A stretch of DNA of 64,000 bases. Origin: Escherichia phage ukendt. The notes beneath the pieces were generated by a model, which made no database searches, was not told the DNA's origin, and was given only the letters and a program-made list of their open reading frames with translations. The stretch lies in the sequence record NC_052661.1; one strand, written 5' to 3'. The position numbers and the translations under genes were made by a program. Shown here one piece after another: positions 16,941-45,345 of this stretch. Position 1 is the stretch's first letter; each line of letters opens with the position of its first letter.

Positions 16941-17900
16941 TTAGATTCCAATGATAGTTGCTGCTCGTTTATCCTTGGATCTGGTGTTTGCTCTACTACG
17001 TGACAAACCTCCGCAAGATTCACAACGAATGATATCGAAAGAACTTACCGCAGTGTGGTATTGTTTACCAGTAACAACGTGAACGTGATCACTGCCACAA
17101 CGAGAACAACGGACCTTCTCATCTGGGTAATAAGCGGATAAGTTAGGATGCTGCGGAATCCACGGAAGGATTTTCATATACAAATCACGGAGTGAAACAA
17201 CATCACCATCATTGTAAATCTGCATACGTTCAAAAGCATCACGATCACCTTCACAACATGCTTTCCATAAAGGGAACCCCTCGTTATCCAGTTTTTCACT
17301 TTCTGTTTCGAAATATGCTCCCATTTCTTTAAGGGAGTTGGAAGGAAGTGCAAATTGTTTCTTAGCTGCCTTCAATGTATCAACAACTACATAATTAGAA
17401 GGAGGAGCCATATCGTGATATGCAAATCGTTGGTTAATGTATGCACGGTCAAACTTATATCCGTTGTGTGCCACAACTACATCTGCCTCATTCAGAAGGT
17501 TCCAAAGATCTTGGCAAAGCTCCCAATCATCTGTATGATCAATATCAAAAAGAGGATAAGAAGACAAGTTCTTACCTTCTACCTCACCAGTATACAGGTC
17601 AGCAGAAGAGTAAGATAACAAATAACCCCTACGAATTACTTGATCTGGAGAAATGAAGGCTTTGAATCGACGGAAAGTATATGCAATCTCTGGTGCAGTT
17701 TCAACATCAATAATTTTAATAACTGGTTGTTTCTTTTTAACTGGCTCTTGTTTACTTGCTCCAAATCGTGCAAGGAAATCGTTCACTGTGCTTTTTCTTG
17801 TTGGACTACCTAAAACAATTGCTGCAATATTGCGAGAAGACATACCCTCTGCACTCATACTAAGGATATCTGCTTTCTGCTCTTCTGTTAATCTGCTCAC
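16941..17900 (-). CDS. DEDD-family 3'-5' exonuclease with N-terminal HTH and C-terminal zinc ribbon
   Basis: Exo I IIDVETAP, Exo II VVAHNGYKFD, Exo III YNDGDVVSLRDLY; N-terminal HTH-like LSMSAEGMSSRNIAAIV; CSRCGSDH...CESCGG. Confidence 0.55.
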   Translation of the reverse strand: MSRLTEEQKADILSMSAEGMSSRNIAAIVLGSPTRKSTVNDFLARFGASKQEPVKKKQPVIKIIDVETAPEIAYTFRRFKAFISPDQVIRRGYLLSYSSADLYTGEVEGKNLSSYPLFDIDHTDDWELCQDLWNLLNEADVVVAHNGYKFDRAYINQRFAYHDMAPPSNYVVVDTLKAAKKQFALPSNSLKEMGAYFETESEKLDNEGFPLWKACCEGDRDAFERMQIYNDGDVVSLRDLYMKILPWIPQHPNLSAYYPDEKVRCSRCGSDHVHVVTGKQYHTAVSSFDIIRCESCGGLSRSRANTRSKDKRAATIIGI

Positions 17901-18586
17901 TCTGCCTCCTGTTGCGAGATGTATGACTGAAGCATACTCTCAAATGTTGTATCGTCATTATCCCAGCGTTTCATGTATACCAACTGGAAAATTGTTTCTA
18001 TCCATTCATCTGTTGTCATATGGACTTCTTCTCCATCCCAAGAAGTAAAATTAACACCATCTGGGAACCATGAGTAGTAAGTATCTTTAACTGTTTGGAA
18101 AAGTTCTGCTTGAGTTTTACAAGCTGAAAGAAGATTAAAACAAGTAATATCTCCGAACTTAATATCAAAATCTTGATAAGGTCGGATACTATCTGTTTTA
18201 TCTCCCATTAGCATCTGATATGCTAACCAGTAACTGCCCCAACCTTTAACTTCTTTCTTTTTACCTTTATCTACGATCCATATATCGCCAATAGACTCGT
18301 CAATAAGAATTATATCTGGATTTTTAAATACTCCATCCTCTTTGTAGAAATTAAAAAGGATACTAGGAGTATGTAAACTATCTTTATCTATAGACACTAC
18401 GATATAAGAAAATTTACCCGTCCTTTTATAATCTTTATAACCTTGGAAACCATACTTCTCTAACTCATCATCAGCTTCTATTACAGTAACAACATCACCA
18501 TTGTGGAACTCCACAAGATAATCTTTGGTTTCTGAAAGCTGAAGTGGTTTGATATCTAATCGTTCAGATTTATATTCTACAGGCAT
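17897..18586 (-). CDS. hypothetical nuclease-like protein (229 aa from ATG; frame stays open a further 147 codons upstream)
   Basis: ORF from track; IDKDS, ILIDESIGD, LMGDKTDSI acidic motifs; see finding on the start-less extension. Confidence 0.5.
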   Translation of the reverse strand: MPVEYKSERLDIKPLQLSETKDYLVEFHNGDVVTVIEADDELEKYGFQGYKDYKRTGKFSYIVVSIDKDSLHTPSILFNFYKEDGVFKNPDIILIDESIGDIWIVDKGKKKEVKGWGSYWLAYQMLMGDKTDSIRPYQDFDIKFGDITCFNLLSACKTQAELFQTVKDTYYSWFPDGVNFTSWDGEEVHMTTDEWIETIFQLVYMKRWDNDDTTFESMLQSYISQQEAE

Positions 18587-19027
18587 TTTGAAGGCGTGTC
18601 TGAAAGTTTTTCCTACGCCAATAACTCCGCAATATTTTTCTAAACGTAGATGTTTTAGAATACCTAAGACTTTTGTTTTAGCTGCTTGGAAGGTGTGTCC
18701 GATATCTTCTGGCGGGTATTGCTTATCAATGATTTCGAACTCTTCCTTTGTGAAGGGACGTTTGTTTTTGGAGGCTCTTTCTGCATTTGTATCTCCTAGC
18801 CAACCTCCAATTTTAGTCTTGCTTTTACCCCAAAACTCTGTCTTATTTTTAAATTCCTTTTGAGCACCTGAAGGGATGTGCTTCGCAATGATTGTTCTTT
18901 TCTCTAATGCAGACGCTGCTTGGAAAGCGATCTGATCATAATCAATTGCAGCTATTGTTTCTTCGTTGACATATAAATGAAGATCTTCAGGTTTAATTAA
19001 AATATAACCGCTAATATTTCCCCCTAA
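18587..19027 (-). other. in-frame open extension (147 codons) with no ATG/GTG/TTG
   Basis: hand translation LGGNISGYILIKPEDLHLYVNEETIAAIDYDQ...YCGVIGVGKTFRHAFK runs without a stop into the ATG at 18586; bounded upstream by the in-frame TAA of ORF 19028..19237. Confidence 0.5.
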
Positions 19028-19237
19028 TTATTCATCGTCATCCTCTGTTGAGAATGTTTTAGTATACGGACATTGACGACTTTTCGGGATTGCTATAACT
19101 TCATCTTGGTTAGCGTTAGAATAGTAACAATATTTTGTATTGCCATTAACTTCAGAATCAGACAAGATTAAAGTAATTTGACCTGCTGCTACTGTGAAAC
19201 TAAAAGCTAAAAGAATGACTGTTAGAATCTTTTTCAT
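19028..19237 (-). CDS. small secreted/lipoprotein-like protein (69 aa)
   Basis: signal-peptide-like MKKILTVILLAFSFTVAAGQ; SD GGAGG; directly downstream of a terminator. Confidence 0.55.
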   Translation of the reverse strand: MKKILTVILLAFSFTVAAGQITLILSDSEVNGNTKYCYYSNANQDEVIAIPKSRQCPYTKTFSTEDDDE

Positions 19238-19247
19238 AACGCCTCCT

Positions 19248-19276
19248 AAAAAGCCTACCTCATTAAGTAGGTAGGC
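19248..19276 (-). terminator. intrinsic terminator (minus strand)
   Basis: 8-bp stem GCCTACCT/AGGTAGGC, 8-nt loop, followed by UUUUUA on minus-strand transcript. Confidence 0.55.
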
Positions 19277-19309
19277 ATAGTATCATAACTAATCCCGCAA
19301 GTCAAGAAC

Positions 19310-20188
19310 TTATTTAAGGATTGTTGCTTTGGTTAAATCTTCCATCAGACCTCGAATCTCATTGAAGCACAGAAGGACTGAAGCTTCAATACTGCCTTCT
19401 TCGTCTGCAAAATATTTCGGAAAACGTAGTTTAGAAAGTTTAAACTCTTTATCCACTACAAAATCTACAACACCGTCATATTCAAGACCGATTGCAACAA
19501 CATCTTTACCATCTTCTTTTAGTTCGACAGCTTTAGACTCGTATAGGGATTCTTTACTCCAAACAACAACGCCCTCGCTATCCTCCATTTTGATATAATT
19601 TCCTAGAGTAATACGATCTGCTTCGTGATTCTCCAGCAATTCACCAAAACCTTTTACAATAGCTTCTTCGTGCACACTAAAACCTACCGAAGGGAAAGTC
19701 CCCAGAACGGAACGGAGGAAAGAAGTAATCTCTTCTGCAACCTTTTTACTTCCATTAAGAACATAAAGAAGATTCGTAGTTTTATCCAAGACAACATAGT
19801 TAAAGAAATCTTCAGGTTCTGTTTCAGGCAATAGTGCAAATTCAATATCTTCTTTCATTGCTTTGACTACTTCTTTATCGACATAAAACTCTTTACCCTC
19901 GCTCTCCATATCCTGACGCATTTCTTCTAGACGTTCATTCAGAATACGTTTAACTTTCTTTTTATCTACCTTCTTCACAGATTGACCTACATTAAGCAGT
20001 TCAAGATCTGAAAACTCTTTTACAAATTTGGAGTCATCTTCGAAACGAACAAGACCGATAGTGTGTGACTGGGAGCCTTCTGCTGTTACAAATTCCAGAG
20101 GAATATCTGTAATGTTGTTAAGGGATGCTACAGAAGCATTGTCACCAACAACCATAGGCAGAGCGGATTTAAAAGATTTTACAAACAT
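19310..20188 (-). CDS. hypothetical protein (292 aa), possibly RdgC-like
   Basis: ORF; weak overall resemblance to recombination-associated RdgC; not verified. Confidence 0.45.
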   Translation of the reverse strand: MFVKSFKSALPMVVGDNASVASLNNITDIPLEFVTAEGSQSHTIGLVRFEDDSKFVKEFSDLELLNVGQSVKKVDKKKVKRILNERLEEMRQDMESEGKEFYVDKEVVKAMKEDIEFALLPETEPEDFFNYVVLDKTTNLLYVLNGSKKVAEEITSFLRSVLGTFPSVGFSVHEEAIVKGFGELLENHEADRITLGNYIKMEDSEGVVVWSKESLYESKAVELKEDGKDVVAIGLEYDGVVDFVVDKEFKLSKLRFPKYFADEEGSIEASVLLCFNEIRGLMEDLTKATILK

Positions 20189-44596: not shown

Positions 44597-45079
44597 ATGT
44601 CACAAGAACAAGATAACACAATTCAAAAATATGCTCGACCAGAAGAAGTAGTTGAGATTCCATTAGATGGAAACAGATCTGTTACTTTCCGTATTATGAA
44701 ATGGAGTCCATCTAAAGTGTTCGACAGGATTCCAGAATTAGGTAGTGTTCTGGTTGTTCCTATGACTATGTATAGCACAGCAACAATGTCCGCAGACGAA
44801 GACCTTGAGTCACGTATTGCTATGGCACTGATCCAACTTTTTGCAGGTTTGGAAGAAAAGAATTTAACTGTCTTTTTGCGTAAAATTTTAGATGAGGTTT
44901 ATACCCAAGACGGTTATAACGTTGCAGAAAATTTTGATGAATTATTTATGGCTCACCCAGAACTAGTGTTAGATCTTACTGCTAAAGTTCTGGAGGTAAA
45001 CTACGGCCCTTTTTTCAAACGAGGTTTCGGAAAACTGTTCACACAGCTTCAGGCGATGACGAGTTTAGCAGCAAATTAA
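44597..45079 (+). CDS. tail assembly chaperone (putative)
   Basis: 160 aa immediately upstream of tape measure gene. Confidence 0.45.
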   Translation: MSQEQDNTIQKYARPEEVVEIPLDGNRSVTFRIMKWSPSKVFDRIPELGSVLVVPMTMYSTATMSADEDLESRIAMALIQLFAGLEEKNLTVFLRKILDEVYTQDGYNVAENFDELFMAHPELVLDLTAKVLEVNYGPFFKRGFGKLFTQLQAMTSLAAN

Positions 45080-45126
45080 CACCTGCGATTGAACATGCTA
45101 TCGACACAGCAACGAAAACCCTTACT

Positions 45127-45345
45127 TTGAAGTGGTATGAGGTTATTCTTTGCAAAGTCGTTAAAGATACCTCGGAAACACTGAAAACATTAGATAACTA
45201 CGGTGTAGATTATCTTTTAAAACTATATGAGTATTTAACATACGAAGAGTATGTTGAAGCCATGTATGTTAAAGACACTTCAATAAAGAGAAAACATCAA
45301 AACCAGACAAATAAAATGTCAGATTTGTTTAAGAAACTTGTTTAA
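45127..45345 (+). CDS. possible second chaperone ORF / frameshift extension
   Basis: -1 frame relative to 44597..45079, open from 45070; TTG start without SD; no canonical slippery heptamer found. Confidence 0.3.
   Translation: MKWYEVILCKVVKDTSETLKTLDNYGVDYLLKLYEYLTYEEYVEAMYVKDTSIKRKHQNQTNKMSDLFKKLV

What the first reader, a model, noticed from the sequence alone, without database searches (positions are those of the whole stretch)
17897..19027. 147-codon in-frame upstream extension with no ATG, GTG or TTG
Upstream of the annotated ATG (18586) the same frame stays open for 441 nt (hand-checked codon by codon), encoding protein-like sequence that includes a helix-hairpin-helix-like CGVIGVGKTF. 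It is bounded only by the TAA stop of the signal-peptide ORF 19028..19237, which is in the same frame. A 147-codon stop-free run in AT-rich DNA is very unlikely by chance. Either the gene starts at a non-canonical codon (an ATT lies 3-4 nt after GGGGGA next to the TAA), or a longer gene was split by an in-frame stop, or the single TAA is read through or is a sequencing artefact.
Basis: seen in the sequence. Interest (0 to 1): 0.6.

Follow-up and report, generated by a model that had tools for sequence, protein, structure and literature searches.

The report
Phage exonuclease gene starting at ATT
The "missing" front third of this phage's DNA-repair/replication nuclease gene is real coding sequence that is translated from a rare non-standard start codon (ATT), a weak-start arrangement kept by the whole phage subfamily and mis-annotated as a truncated gene in almost all public genomes.

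Summary
On the minus strand the frame of the annotated 229-aa "putative exonuclease" (ATG 18586) stays open for 147 more codons with no ATG/GTG/TTG, up to the TAA of the upstream 69-aa ORF. The window is a phAPEC8-like coliphage (Phapecoctavirus).

The extension is coding. Homologues in many phages align across it, it evolves under purifying selection, and it holds invariant residues including a predicted catalytic Asp. The full 372-aa protein models confidently as a FEN-type 5'-3' exonuclease.

Translation most likely begins at ATT 19015..19013, 4 nt after GGGGG, which is the commonest SD spacing in this window. In 54 related loci (22 clusters at 90% identity) the homologous codon is ATT, ATC, ATA or once CTG, and never a canonical start. 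It always follows GGAGG/GGGGG. Four distinct relative sequences have an in-frame TAA directly before it. The frame relative to the upstream ORF varies, which excludes readthrough or a split gene.

More distant relatives use TTG, GTG or ATG at the same codon. One GenBank record (ESCO13) already annotates the ATT start; the others sampled truncate the gene. This is a new, clade-wide example of a known phenomenon (infC/pcnB-type near-cognate initiation), inferred by comparison and not yet shown experimentally.

The parts
17897..19015 (-). Full-length FEN-superfamily 5'-3' exonuclease gene: 372 codons from ATT plus TGA stop (17899..17897)
   Evidence: tblastn: 899 phage records cover at least 80% of the conceptual protein. 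PHROG 107 'exonuclease' matches residues 10-367, E 1.4e-55. AlphaFold2 model has mean pLDDT 95. Foldseek top PDB hits are ExoIX, T5 D15 FEN and Plastid Localized Exonuclease 1. dN/dS is 0.2 or less in the extension.
19013..19015 (-). Proposed initiation codon ATT (AUU), read as fMet
   Evidence: The homologous codon is ATT/ATC/ATA/CTG in 22 of 22 clusters of relatives. In four distinct relative sequences (loci L013/L052, L036, L037, L039) it is directly preceded by an in-frame TAA. It aligns with the TTG/GTG/ATG starts of Vequintavirinae homologues. GenBank KX552041.2 (ESCO13) annotates the CDS from this ATT.
19020..19024 (-). Shine-Dalgarno element GGGGG (GGAGG in most relatives), followed by the 4-nt spacer AAAT (19019..19016)
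   Evidence: Read directly from the sequence. GG[AG]GG is conserved 4-5 nt upstream of the start in all relatives although the reading frame across it is not conserved. A 4-nt spacing is the mode (19 of 42) for GG[AG]GG followed by a canonical start in this window.
18587..19012 (-). N-terminal 142 codons missing from most public annotations; encode beta1 with invariant Asp25 (18943..18941), Phe55, Phe138 and Arg139, and two core strands of the PIN-like domain
   Evidence: Alignment A1: D25, F55 and R139 are invariant in 33 diverse homologues. Structure elements E16-25 and E127-137 lie in this part. Codon position 3 varies in 139 of 140 codons, against 91 and 75 for positions 1 and 2.
18584..18586 (-). 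ATG used as start in most annotations; actually internal Met144
   Evidence: No SD-like sequence precedes it (ACGCCTTCAAA-ATG). The residue is Leu in many homologues. A product starting here would lack Asp25 and two core strands.
19028..19237 (-). Upstream 69-aa ORF with predicted signal peptide (PHROG 4641, unknown function); its TAA (19030..19028) lies 12 nt before the ATT, allowing translational coupling
   Evidence: The phi92 homologue is annotated with a SignalP signal peptide. The stop lies within or next to the SD in relatives.
16941..17900 (-). Downstream DnaQ/RNase_H_2-like 3'-5' exonuclease gene; its GTG start overlaps the TGA stop of the FEN gene (GTGA)
   Evidence: PF13482, E 9.5e-10. 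The same gene order holds in all relatives.
19253..19305 (-). Promoter-like TTGACT-17-TACTAT (19305..19277) followed by a GC-rich hairpin with a T-run (19276..19253), upstream of the small ORF
   Evidence: Consensus scans only. A terminator is annotated here in phage ASO2A. Function not tested.

Best explanation
The region is one intact gene for a 372-aa flap-endonuclease-type 5'-3' exonuclease. Its translation starts at the near-cognate codon AUU (19015..19013, minus strand). The 30S subunit is positioned by a strong Shine-Dalgarno sequence (GGGGG, with GGAGG in relatives) 4 nt upstream, and initiator fMet-tRNA pairs with AUU with a third-position mismatch, so the protein begins fMet-Ser-Gly-Tyr. 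Ribosomes terminating at the TAA of the small upstream ORF, 12 nt away, probably add some re-initiation, as at the thrS-infC junction. The start codon is weak: published E. coli reporter values range from about 1-2% of AUG to 6-8-fold below AUG. The gene is therefore translated at a low level that should also be sensitive to IF3, and selection has kept it that way. Across the Stephanstirmvirinae and their metagenomic relatives the codon drifts among AUU, AUC, AUA and CUG but is never AUG, GUG or UUG. Shown here: the extension is coding, the frame boundary, the conserved SD and near-cognate codon, and the fold. Inferred: that initiation really occurs at this codon, that the N-terminal residue is fMet, that coupling contributes, and that low or IF3-tuned expression is the selected trait.
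For: (1) The extension is coding. Homologues from rV5-like, PVP-SE1-like, phi92-like, ICP1 and Pseudomonas phages align from residues ~2-20 onward. D25, F55 and R139 are invariant and lie in the extension. dN is 0.09-0.47 with saturated dS, giving dN/dS of 0.2 or less where it could be computed.
(2) Fold. The AF2 model of the 372-aa protein has pLDDT 95, with the N-terminal part forming core strands. The best PDB matches are FEN-family nucleases at probability 1.0. A profile aligns the FRH..YK, EADD, DKD and GDxxDN motifs to the Taq 5' nuclease.
(3) Start site. In 54 loci forming 22 clusters at 90% identity, the codon 22-24 codons upstream of IDYDQ is ATT (10 clusters), ATC (7), ATA (5) or CTG (1), always 4-5 nt after GGAGG/GGGGG.
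(4) Upstream boundary. Four distinct relative sequences (loci L013/L052, L036, L037, L039) have TAA directly 5' of the ATC. The SD-to-start spacer varies by 1 nt, so the SD nucleotides are conserved but their reading frame is not.
(5) No usable canonical start. In several lineages the first canonical start lies 5 to 172 codons downstream of the invariant Asp.
(6) Outgroups. Vequintavirinae homologues have TTG, GTG or ATG at the homologous codon, followed by the same Gly-Tyr.
(7) Spacing. Four nt is the modal SD spacing in this window, 19 of 42.
(8) Published measurements. AUA, AUC, AUU and CUG form one class of near-cognate start codons in E. coli at 1-2% of AUG, and initiate with Met (bioRxiv 10.1101/063800). 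AUU gave 6-8-fold lower expression than AUG, and the infC stop-SD-AUU junction gains about 2-fold from coupling (PMC3592434).
(9) Independent annotation. The ESCO13 GenBank record annotates exactly this ATT start.
Against: There is no direct evidence here: no N-terminal peptide, ribosome profiling or toeprint. ATT/ATC/ATA are also synonymous Ile codons, so the third-base pattern alone would fit an internal Ile. The case rests on the upstream stops, the frame inconsistency and the SD. A second conserved Ile codon lies 6 codons downstream (I7), and other near-cognate codons follow. Predicted local RNA structure partly pairs the SD and start (MFE -15.9 kcal/mol, z -2.3); its significance is unknown. 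Pfam 5_3_exonuc_N does not reach significance on this protein, and the Asp equivalent to T5 FEN D68 is Gly/Val in this clade, so nuclease activity is itself inferred. The selective reason for a weak start is speculation.
Confidence: 0.85

Rival explanations
1. Translation starts at a different non-canonical codon a few codons downstream in the same frame (for example ATT at codon 5 or codon 7 of the 372-aa reading), giving a protein a few residues shorter.
For: Several ATT/ATA codons follow within the first 11 codons. The Ile at position 7 is conserved as ATT/ATC/ATA in most relatives.
Against: Those codons lie 16-22 nt from the SD, outside the 2-12 nt range seen for starts in this window. Codon 5 is not conserved: it is Lys or Ile in L019, L020 and L022. 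The first ATH aligns exactly with the canonical TTG/GTG/ATG starts of outgroups, followed by the same Gly-Tyr.
Confidence: 0.06
2. The exonuclease is made as a fusion with the upstream signal-peptide ORF, by readthrough of TAA 19030..19028 (or by a frameshift in relatives); equivalently, one ancestral gene was split by an in-frame stop.
For: In the window the two ORFs are in the same frame and separated by a single TAA. One database protein (P0005, 444 aa) looks like such a fusion.
Against: The frame relation is not conserved. It is 0 in the window, L012 and L014; -1 in phi92, L009 and L017; and there are two in-frame stops in L013, L036, L037 and L039. In L023, L062 and L063 the upstream neighbour is a different gene. 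P0005 is a gene-caller artefact: its contig has TAG where the protein has Q, and the look-up reports 'translates_to_query: no'. Outgroup homologues are stand-alone genes with their own starts. A secretion signal on a DNA nuclease makes no functional sense (inference).
Confidence: 0.02
3. The annotated 229-aa ATG-initiated protein is the real product, and the upstream 147 codons are a decaying remnant (pseudogenised N-terminus).
For: This is how nearly all public records annotate it. The ATG is the first canonical start.
Against: The extension is under purifying selection with saturated synonymous change and no stop or frameshift in 22 divergent clusters. It contains invariant Asp25, Phe55 and Arg139 and two core beta-strands. 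No SD precedes the ATG. Met144 is Leu in many homologues. In other lineages the first canonical start falls at quite different places.
Confidence: 0.02
4. Sequencing or assembly artefact: the true genome has a canonical start, or lacks the TAA.
For: None beyond the oddity itself.
Against: The start-region sequence is identical in independently sequenced genomes and metagenomes (L003, L007, L008, L024, L033, L047 and the window). Sixty-three phage records match the whole conceptual protein at 99% identity or more.
Confidence: 0.01

Closest known systems
E. coli infC (IF3) AUU start codon at the thrS-infC junction
   Same: A near-cognate AUU start placed a few nucleotides after an SD and just after the stop codon of the upstream cistron. 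Expression is several-fold lower than with AUG, with a contribution from coupling (PMC3592434). The AUU is conserved among relatives.
   Different: infC's AUU serves autoregulation by its own product IF3, which has been shown experimentally. Here the gene encodes a nuclease, no regulation has been tested, and the codon varies among AUU, AUC, AUA and CUG across the clade.
E. coli pcnB (poly(A) polymerase I) AUU start
   Same: A weak AUU start used to limit translation of an enzyme that is harmful when over-produced (Binns & Masters 2002, cited; one of only two confirmed non-canonical starts in E. coli according to bioRxiv 10.1101/063800). This is the closest functional analogy: dosage limitation of a nucleic-acid enzyme.
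   Different: pcnB is a host gene with experimental proof. The phage case is inferred from comparison only.
Phage T4 gene 26* internal AUU initiation (Nivinskas et al. 1992; recalled from memory, could not be verified in the paper library)
   Same: A coliphage gene product initiated at AUU.
   Different: That is an internal, secondary start producing a shorter peptide. Here AUU would be the only start of the full-length enzyme and is conserved across a subfamily.
FEN-family 5'-3' exonucleases: T5 D15 flap endonuclease, E. coli ExoIX, Pol I 5' nuclease domain
   Same: The same fold by Foldseek (E 4e-5 to 3e-4, probability 1.0). Shared acidic motifs: IDYD (Asp25), IEADD, DKD and GDKTD.
   Different: Only 10-14% sequence identity. 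About 100 residues longer, with insertions: a beta-hairpin/helix at residues ~39-100 and beta-rich inserts at 218-259. The Asp equivalent to T5 D68 is Gly/Val. Pfam PF02739 is not significant on this protein.

Membership tests
FEN / 5'-3' exonuclease superfamily (PIN-like nuclease domain plus H3TH) | PIN-like alpha/beta fold followed by an H3TH DNA-binding motif | tested here: met
   AF2 model has pLDDT 95. Foldseek against PDB: ranks 1-14 are all FEN-family nucleases or Pol I (Plastid Localized Exonuclease 1, ExoIX, T5 D15, M. smegmatis Pol1), and nine have E <= 0.001; TM normalised to the target is 0.38-0.59 for ranks 1-13.
FEN / 5'-3' exonuclease superfamily (PIN-like nuclease domain plus H3TH) | Conserved carboxylates of the two metal sites (T5 numbering D26, D68, E128, D130, D153, D155, D201, D204) | tested here: inconclusive
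   D25, E180, D182, D183, D210, D212, D272 and D275 are invariant in 33 homologues and align with the Taq 5' nuclease motifs. The D68 equivalent is Gly/Val in this clade. T5 residue numbers are from memory.
FEN / 5'-3' exonuclease superfamily (PIN-like nuclease domain plus H3TH) | Significant match to the Pfam 5_3_exonuc_N (PF02739) family model | tested here: not met
   No Pfam hit at E <= 1 for the 376-aa or partial proteins. More distant homologues (P0035, P0073-75, P0077 and others) do carry PF02739 in precomputed annotation, and PHROG 107 'exonuclease' matches at 1.4e-55.
FEN / 5'-3' exonuclease superfamily (PIN-like nuclease domain plus H3TH) | Structure-specific 5' nuclease activity | not testable with these tools
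   Needs a biochemical assay.
Genes initiated at a near-cognate (non-AUG/GUG/UUG) codon, infC/pcnB type | No canonical in-frame start available upstream of residues essential for the protein | tested here: met
   First ATG/GTG/TTG is at codon 148 of the open frame, 119 codons downstream of invariant Asp25. In relatives the first canonical start is often downstream of the Asp.
Genes initiated at a near-cognate (non-AUG/GUG/UUG) codon, infC/pcnB type | Shine-Dalgarno sequence at functional spacing from the near-cognate codon | tested here: met
   GGGGG plus 4 nt plus ATT. Four nt is the modal spacing for canonical starts in this window. GGAGG/GGGGG is conserved in all 22 clusters.
Genes initiated at a near-cognate (non-AUG/GUG/UUG) codon, infC/pcnB type | Reading frame demonstrably begins at that codon (closed or not conserved upstream) and the near-cognate codon is conserved in relatives | tested here: met
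   In-frame TAA immediately upstream in L013/L052, L036, L037 and L039. A 1-nt spacer indel changes the frame across the SD. ATT/ATC/ATA/CTG in 22 of 22 clusters.
Genes initiated at a near-cognate (non-AUG/GUG/UUG) codon, infC/pcnB type | Protein N-terminus is (f)Met decoded from the near-cognate codon; initiation is discriminated by IF3 | not testable with these tools
   Needs N-terminal proteomics, toeprinting, and IF3 titration or infC mutants.
Programmed stop-codon readthrough or frameshift fusion | A fixed frame relationship and a conserved recoding signal between the two ORFs | tested here: not met
   The frame relation is 0 or -1, or there are two stops, depending on lineage, and the upstream gene differs in some lineages.

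The most novel reading that the evidence does not exclude
The near-cognate start is a regulatory device and not only a throttle. AUU, AUC, AUA and CUG are the codons that IF3 discriminates against. The phage may therefore use host IF3 activity, or the ribosome-to-IF3 ratio as it changes during infection, to time or scale production of its flap endonuclease. This would be an infC-like translational sensor co-opted by a virus and kept for the whole history of a phage subfamily. The trend in the wider family towards weak starts (TTG or GTG in four of five Vequintavirinae representatives examined) would be part of the same selection.
Probability: 0.15. Interest if true: 0.7.

Novelty: new member of a known kind. 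Interest (0 to 1): 0.45.

Why it matters
[quoted passage not shown] If confirmed, this gene would be a third, virus-encoded case translated by E. coli ribosomes. It would also be the first I am aware of in which natural relatives use all four 'near-cognate class' codons (AUU, AUC, AUA, CUG) interchangeably at one homologous start, while canonical codons are excluded over deep divergence. That is a natural experiment on start-codon strength and selection.

Practically, the gene is truncated in nearly all public Phapecoctavirus and Justusliebigvirus annotations: 229 aa in phAPEC8-type records, and phi92 gp085 starts after the catalytic Asp. Spurious small ORFs are annotated inside it, and a gene caller even switched genetic code to explain the region. 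Standard phage gene callers that allow only ATG/GTG/TTG will keep repeating the error. These phages are used in therapy cocktails, so correct annotation of a core replication and recombination nuclease is useful.

Tried and rejected
- Pfam scan of the full, N-terminal and C-terminal proteins: nothing significant.
- phmmer of the single protein against PDB sequences: no hit. The profile search gave only a weak Taq 5' nuclease match (E 0.12), so fold comparison was needed.
- The P0005 'fusion' protein (444 aa) first looked like support for the split-gene idea. Its contig has TAG where the protein has Q, so it is an artefact.
- A TTG 12 codons before the IDYDQ anchor, used by gene callers in L009, L015, L018, L019 and L021, was rejected as a start. 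It is CTT, CTG, TTA or CTA in other lineages and has no SD.
- The ATG 15 codons before the anchor in the 53-57% identity clade (L023, L061, L062) was rejected as the start. The nine codons upstream of it are conserved as protein with synonymous changes and follow SD plus ATA/ATT, and no SD precedes the ATG.
- A window-wide search for other SD-plus-near-cognate starts found three more sites. All are internal to ORFs that have canonical starts 90-383 codons upstream.
- RNA folding around the start gave a weak AU-rich structure (z -2.3). It was not pursued.
- Literature searches for phAPEC8, ESCO13 or phage ATT/ATC starts found no description of this start. The T4 gene 26* AUU precedent could not be verified in the library.
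Full report
**What the window is.** The 1.8-kb region matches 63 phage genomes at 95-99.6% nucleotide identity. These are phAPEC8, ESCO5/13, nieznany, tuntematon and other Phapecoctavirus (Stephanstirmvirinae) coliphages. Genes in this part of the window are on the minus strand. Their order is: RdgC-like protein (20188..19310); a 69-aa ORF with a signal peptide (19237..19028); the gene in question; then a DnaQ/RNase_H_2-like exonuclease (17900..16941).

The minus-strand frame 19027..17897 is open for 376 codons. The first ATG/GTG/TTG is ATG 18586 at codon 148. The frame is closed upstream by TAA 19030..19028, the in-frame stop of the 69-aa ORF.
- From base composition, 147 stop-free codons have a probability of about 4.5e-5, and 147 sense codons without a canonical start about 4e-4 to 6e-4.
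- It is the longest canonical-start-free leader among 95 long frames in the window (median 6 codons, 99th percentile 86).
- Of the longer runners-up, the four I examined are antisense shadow frames or the -1 frame of a tail-chaperone frameshift.

**The extension is coding.**
- tblastn of the 376-aa conceptual protein finds 1,378 phage records, and 899 of them cover at least 80% of it. phi92-like phages (78% identity) align over residues 1-374. PVP-SE1/KNP2-like and rV5-like Vequintavirinae (37-42%) align from residues 2-20. ICP1, Pakpunavirus and others (26-30%) align from residues 11-15.
- PHROG 107 'exonuclease' matches residues 10-367 of the 372-aa reading. The N-terminal 143 aa match it on their own at E 5e-7.
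- In an alignment of 33 diverse homologues, D25, F55 and R139 are invariant, and D27, A34, E38, H46, S49, G50, T59, L73, N77, G133 and F138 are nearly invariant. All lie in the extension.
- Across 15 lineages, codon position 3 varies in 139 of 140 extension codons, against 91 and 75 for positions 1 and 2. dN is 0.09-0.47 while dS is saturated, so dN/dS is 0.2 or less where it could be computed. The C-terminal part behaves the same way.

**What the protein is.**
- AlphaFold2 with this alignment gives mean pLDDT 95 and pTM 0.88. The N-terminal part contributes core elements: strand 16-25 ending in Asp25, helix 26-37 and strand 127-137.
- In Foldseek against the PDB, ranks 1-14 are all FEN-family 5' nucleases or Pol I, and nine of them have E <= 0.001: Plastid Localized Exonuclease 1, E. 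coli ExoIX, T5 D15 flap endonuclease and M. smegmatis Pol1 (E 4e-5 upward, probability about 1.0 for the best).
- A profile search aligns FRH..YK..R, EADD, DKD and GDxxDN with the Taq polymerase 5' nuclease domain (E 0.12).
- Pfam itself gives no significant hit on this protein, but distant homologues carry PF02739.
The H3TH-type motif is GDKTDSIRPYQDF, in the C-terminal part.
- A product starting at Met144 would lack Asp25 and two core strands. No SD precedes that ATG, and the residue is Leu in many homologues.

**Where translation starts.** Directly after the TAA the sequence reads TTA GGG GGA AAT ATT AGC GGT TAT. That is GGGGG (19024..19020), a 4-nt spacer, and ATT (19015..19013). I collected 54 related loci from GenBank phages, IMG/VR, metagenomes and Logan assemblies. 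They form 22 clusters at 90% protein identity and reach down to 50% identity to the window.
- At the homologous position, 22-24 codons before the IDYDQ motif, the codon is ATT in 10 clusters, ATC in 7, ATA in 5 (one cluster has both ATC and ATA) and CTG in 1. It is never ATG, GTG or TTG. It always lies 4-5 nt after GGAGG or GGGGG.

Three observations fix the upstream boundary of the coding region.
- Four distinct relative sequences (loci L013/L052, L036, L037, L039) have an in-frame TAA immediately before the ATC (GGAGGAGTAA-ATC or GGAGGATTAA-ATC).
- The SD-to-start spacer differs by one nucleotide between lineages. The SD nucleotides are therefore conserved while their 'translation' changes (GG versus ED, EE or EG). 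This is what a non-coding ribosome-binding site would show.
- The frame relative to the upstream ORF is 0 in some lineages and -1 in others, and in L023, L062 and L063 the upstream gene is a different one.

In several lineages the first canonical start lies 5 to 172 codons downstream of the invariant Asp. In outgroups the homologous codon, followed by the same Gly-Tyr, is a canonical start behind an SD:
- TTG in rV5-like CarlMeissner (GGAGGGTCT-TTG) and in KNP2 (GGAGGAATG-TTG);
- GTG in PVP-SE1, and in phiTE judged by its SD;
- ATG in PBES 02.

Within this window, 19 of 42 GG[AG]GG motifs that precede a canonical start of an ORF of at least 50 codons use exactly 4-nt spacing. The only SD-plus-near-cognate site not embedded in a canonical ORF is this one.

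**Mechanism.** The simplest reading is SD-directed initiation by fMet-tRNA on AUU.
- Published E. coli measurements put AUA, AUC, AUU and CUG in one class at 1-2% of AUG, with Met at the N-terminus. The same study notes that only infC and pcnB, both AUU, are confirmed natural cases (bioRxiv 10.1101/063800).
- Another study found AUU 6-8-fold weaker than AUG or GUG. It also found that the infC-type junction (stop, SD, AUU) gains about 2-fold from translation of the upstream cistron (PMC3592434).
- The arrangement here, with the stop of the small ORF inside or next to the SD and 0-21 nt from the start in the loci read directly, is of the same type, so coupling probably contributes. That step is inferred.
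- The four codons seen in nature at this site are exactly that experimental class, and the single change to ATG is never seen despite saturated synonymous divergence. This suggests selection for a weak start, which is plausible for a nuclease, as for pcnB. The third-base pattern alone would also fit an Ile codon, so this step is inference.

**Rivals.**
- Readthrough, frameshift fusion or a split gene is contradicted by the variable frame relation, the double stops and the different upstream neighbours. The one 'fusion' protein in the database (P0005, 444 aa) comes from a contig that has TAG where the protein has Q, which is a gene caller using a recoded table.
- A pseudogenised N-terminus is contradicted by purifying selection and the invariant catalytic residue.
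- A sequencing artefact is excluded by identical sequence in many independent genomes.
- A start at a nearby downstream near-cognate codon cannot be fully excluded without experiment. It fits the SD spacing and the outgroup alignment poorly.

**Prior knowledge.**
- GenBank KX552041.2 (phage ESCO13) annotates this CDS from the ATT (372 aa, AQM50955.1) with an RBS feature. Its genome announcement does not mention this.
- Of 12 Phapecoctavirus records sampled at 99% identity or more, only ESCO13 covers the extension with the exonuclease CDS. The others leave it empty or place spurious small ORFs there.
- I found no paper describing the start or its clade-wide conservation.

**Verdict.** It is a new, well-supported but experimentally unproven member of the small class of near-cognate-initiated genes. 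The unusual aspect is the conserved interchange of AUU, AUC, AUA and CUG across a phage subfamily, together with widespread mis-annotation. Interest is moderate (0.45). It would be higher if the weak start proves to be an IF3-linked regulatory device.

Noticed in passing
window 44597..45345 (+), slippery run about 45016..45025: A 160-aa ORF (44597..45079) is overlapped by a -1 frame that is open from 44986 to 45345 and has no canonical start until 45127. It lies directly upstream of a tape-measure-like ORF (45366..). The zero frame contains C CCT TTT TTC. This looks like the classic tail-assembly-chaperone G/GT programmed -1 frameshift.
   Followed up: partly
window 18664..18786 (-); L001 2115..2237; L003 2013..2237: Small 'hypothetical protein' CDSs annotated in phAPEC8 (YP_007348489.1, 40 aa) and WPEC4 (two CDSs) lie out of frame inside the N-terminal part of the exonuclease gene. 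They are almost certainly spurious fillers of the apparent gap.
   Followed up: partly
L014 1201..2535 (Logan SRR30397360 contig), protein P0005: A 444-aa database protein fuses the signal-peptide ORF to the exonuclease and has Q where the contig has TAG. The gene caller apparently chose a TAG-recoded genetic code, probably because the long start-less coding stretch scored better that way.
   Followed up: yes
L063 620..660 (Logan SRR7990610 contig; 50% identical homologue next to an HNH gene): At the homologous start position this lineage has CTG 4 nt after GGAGG (TAGGAGGTAAC-CTG). The frame opens only 5 codons upstream, and the first canonical start comes just before the catalytic Asp. This would be a natural CUG start.
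   Followed up: partly
L004 897 (phi92 gp085); L025 946; L026 913: phi92 gp085 is annotated from a GTG after the IDYDQ catalytic motif. The Klebsiella phage 05F01 and phiWec188 homologues are annotated from non-conserved internal TTG codons. All appear to be N-terminally truncated annotations of the same ATT/ATC-initiated gene.
   Followed up: yes
window 18602..18634 (-), residues 128-138 of the 372-aa protein (CGVIGVGKTF): The position equivalent to the second metal-site Asp of FEN enzymes (FDA in Taq; 'FDG' or 'LDH' in two distant homologues) is Gly/Val throughout this clade. This recalls ExoIX-like enzymes with an incomplete second metal site.
   Followed up: no
window 18975..19065 (-): The predicted local mRNA structure pairs part of the SD (UUAGG) with CCUGA downstream and places the AUU in a weak AU-rich hairpin (MFE -15.9 kcal/mol, z -2.3 against shuffles). 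Whether it is conserved or regulatory was not examined.
   Followed up: no
window 19253..19305 (-): A good sigma-70-like promoter (TTGACT-17 nt-TACTAT with an upstream TG) directly abuts a GC-rich hairpin with a T-run between the RdgC-like gene and the small signal-peptide ORF. This would be a terminator and promoter packed into about 55 nt.
   Followed up: no
window 17897..17900 (-): The downstream DnaQ-like exonuclease starts at a GTG that overlaps the FEN gene's TGA stop (GTGA), with AGGAGG just upstream. Its translation is therefore probably coupled to that of the weakly initiated FEN gene.
   Followed up: no
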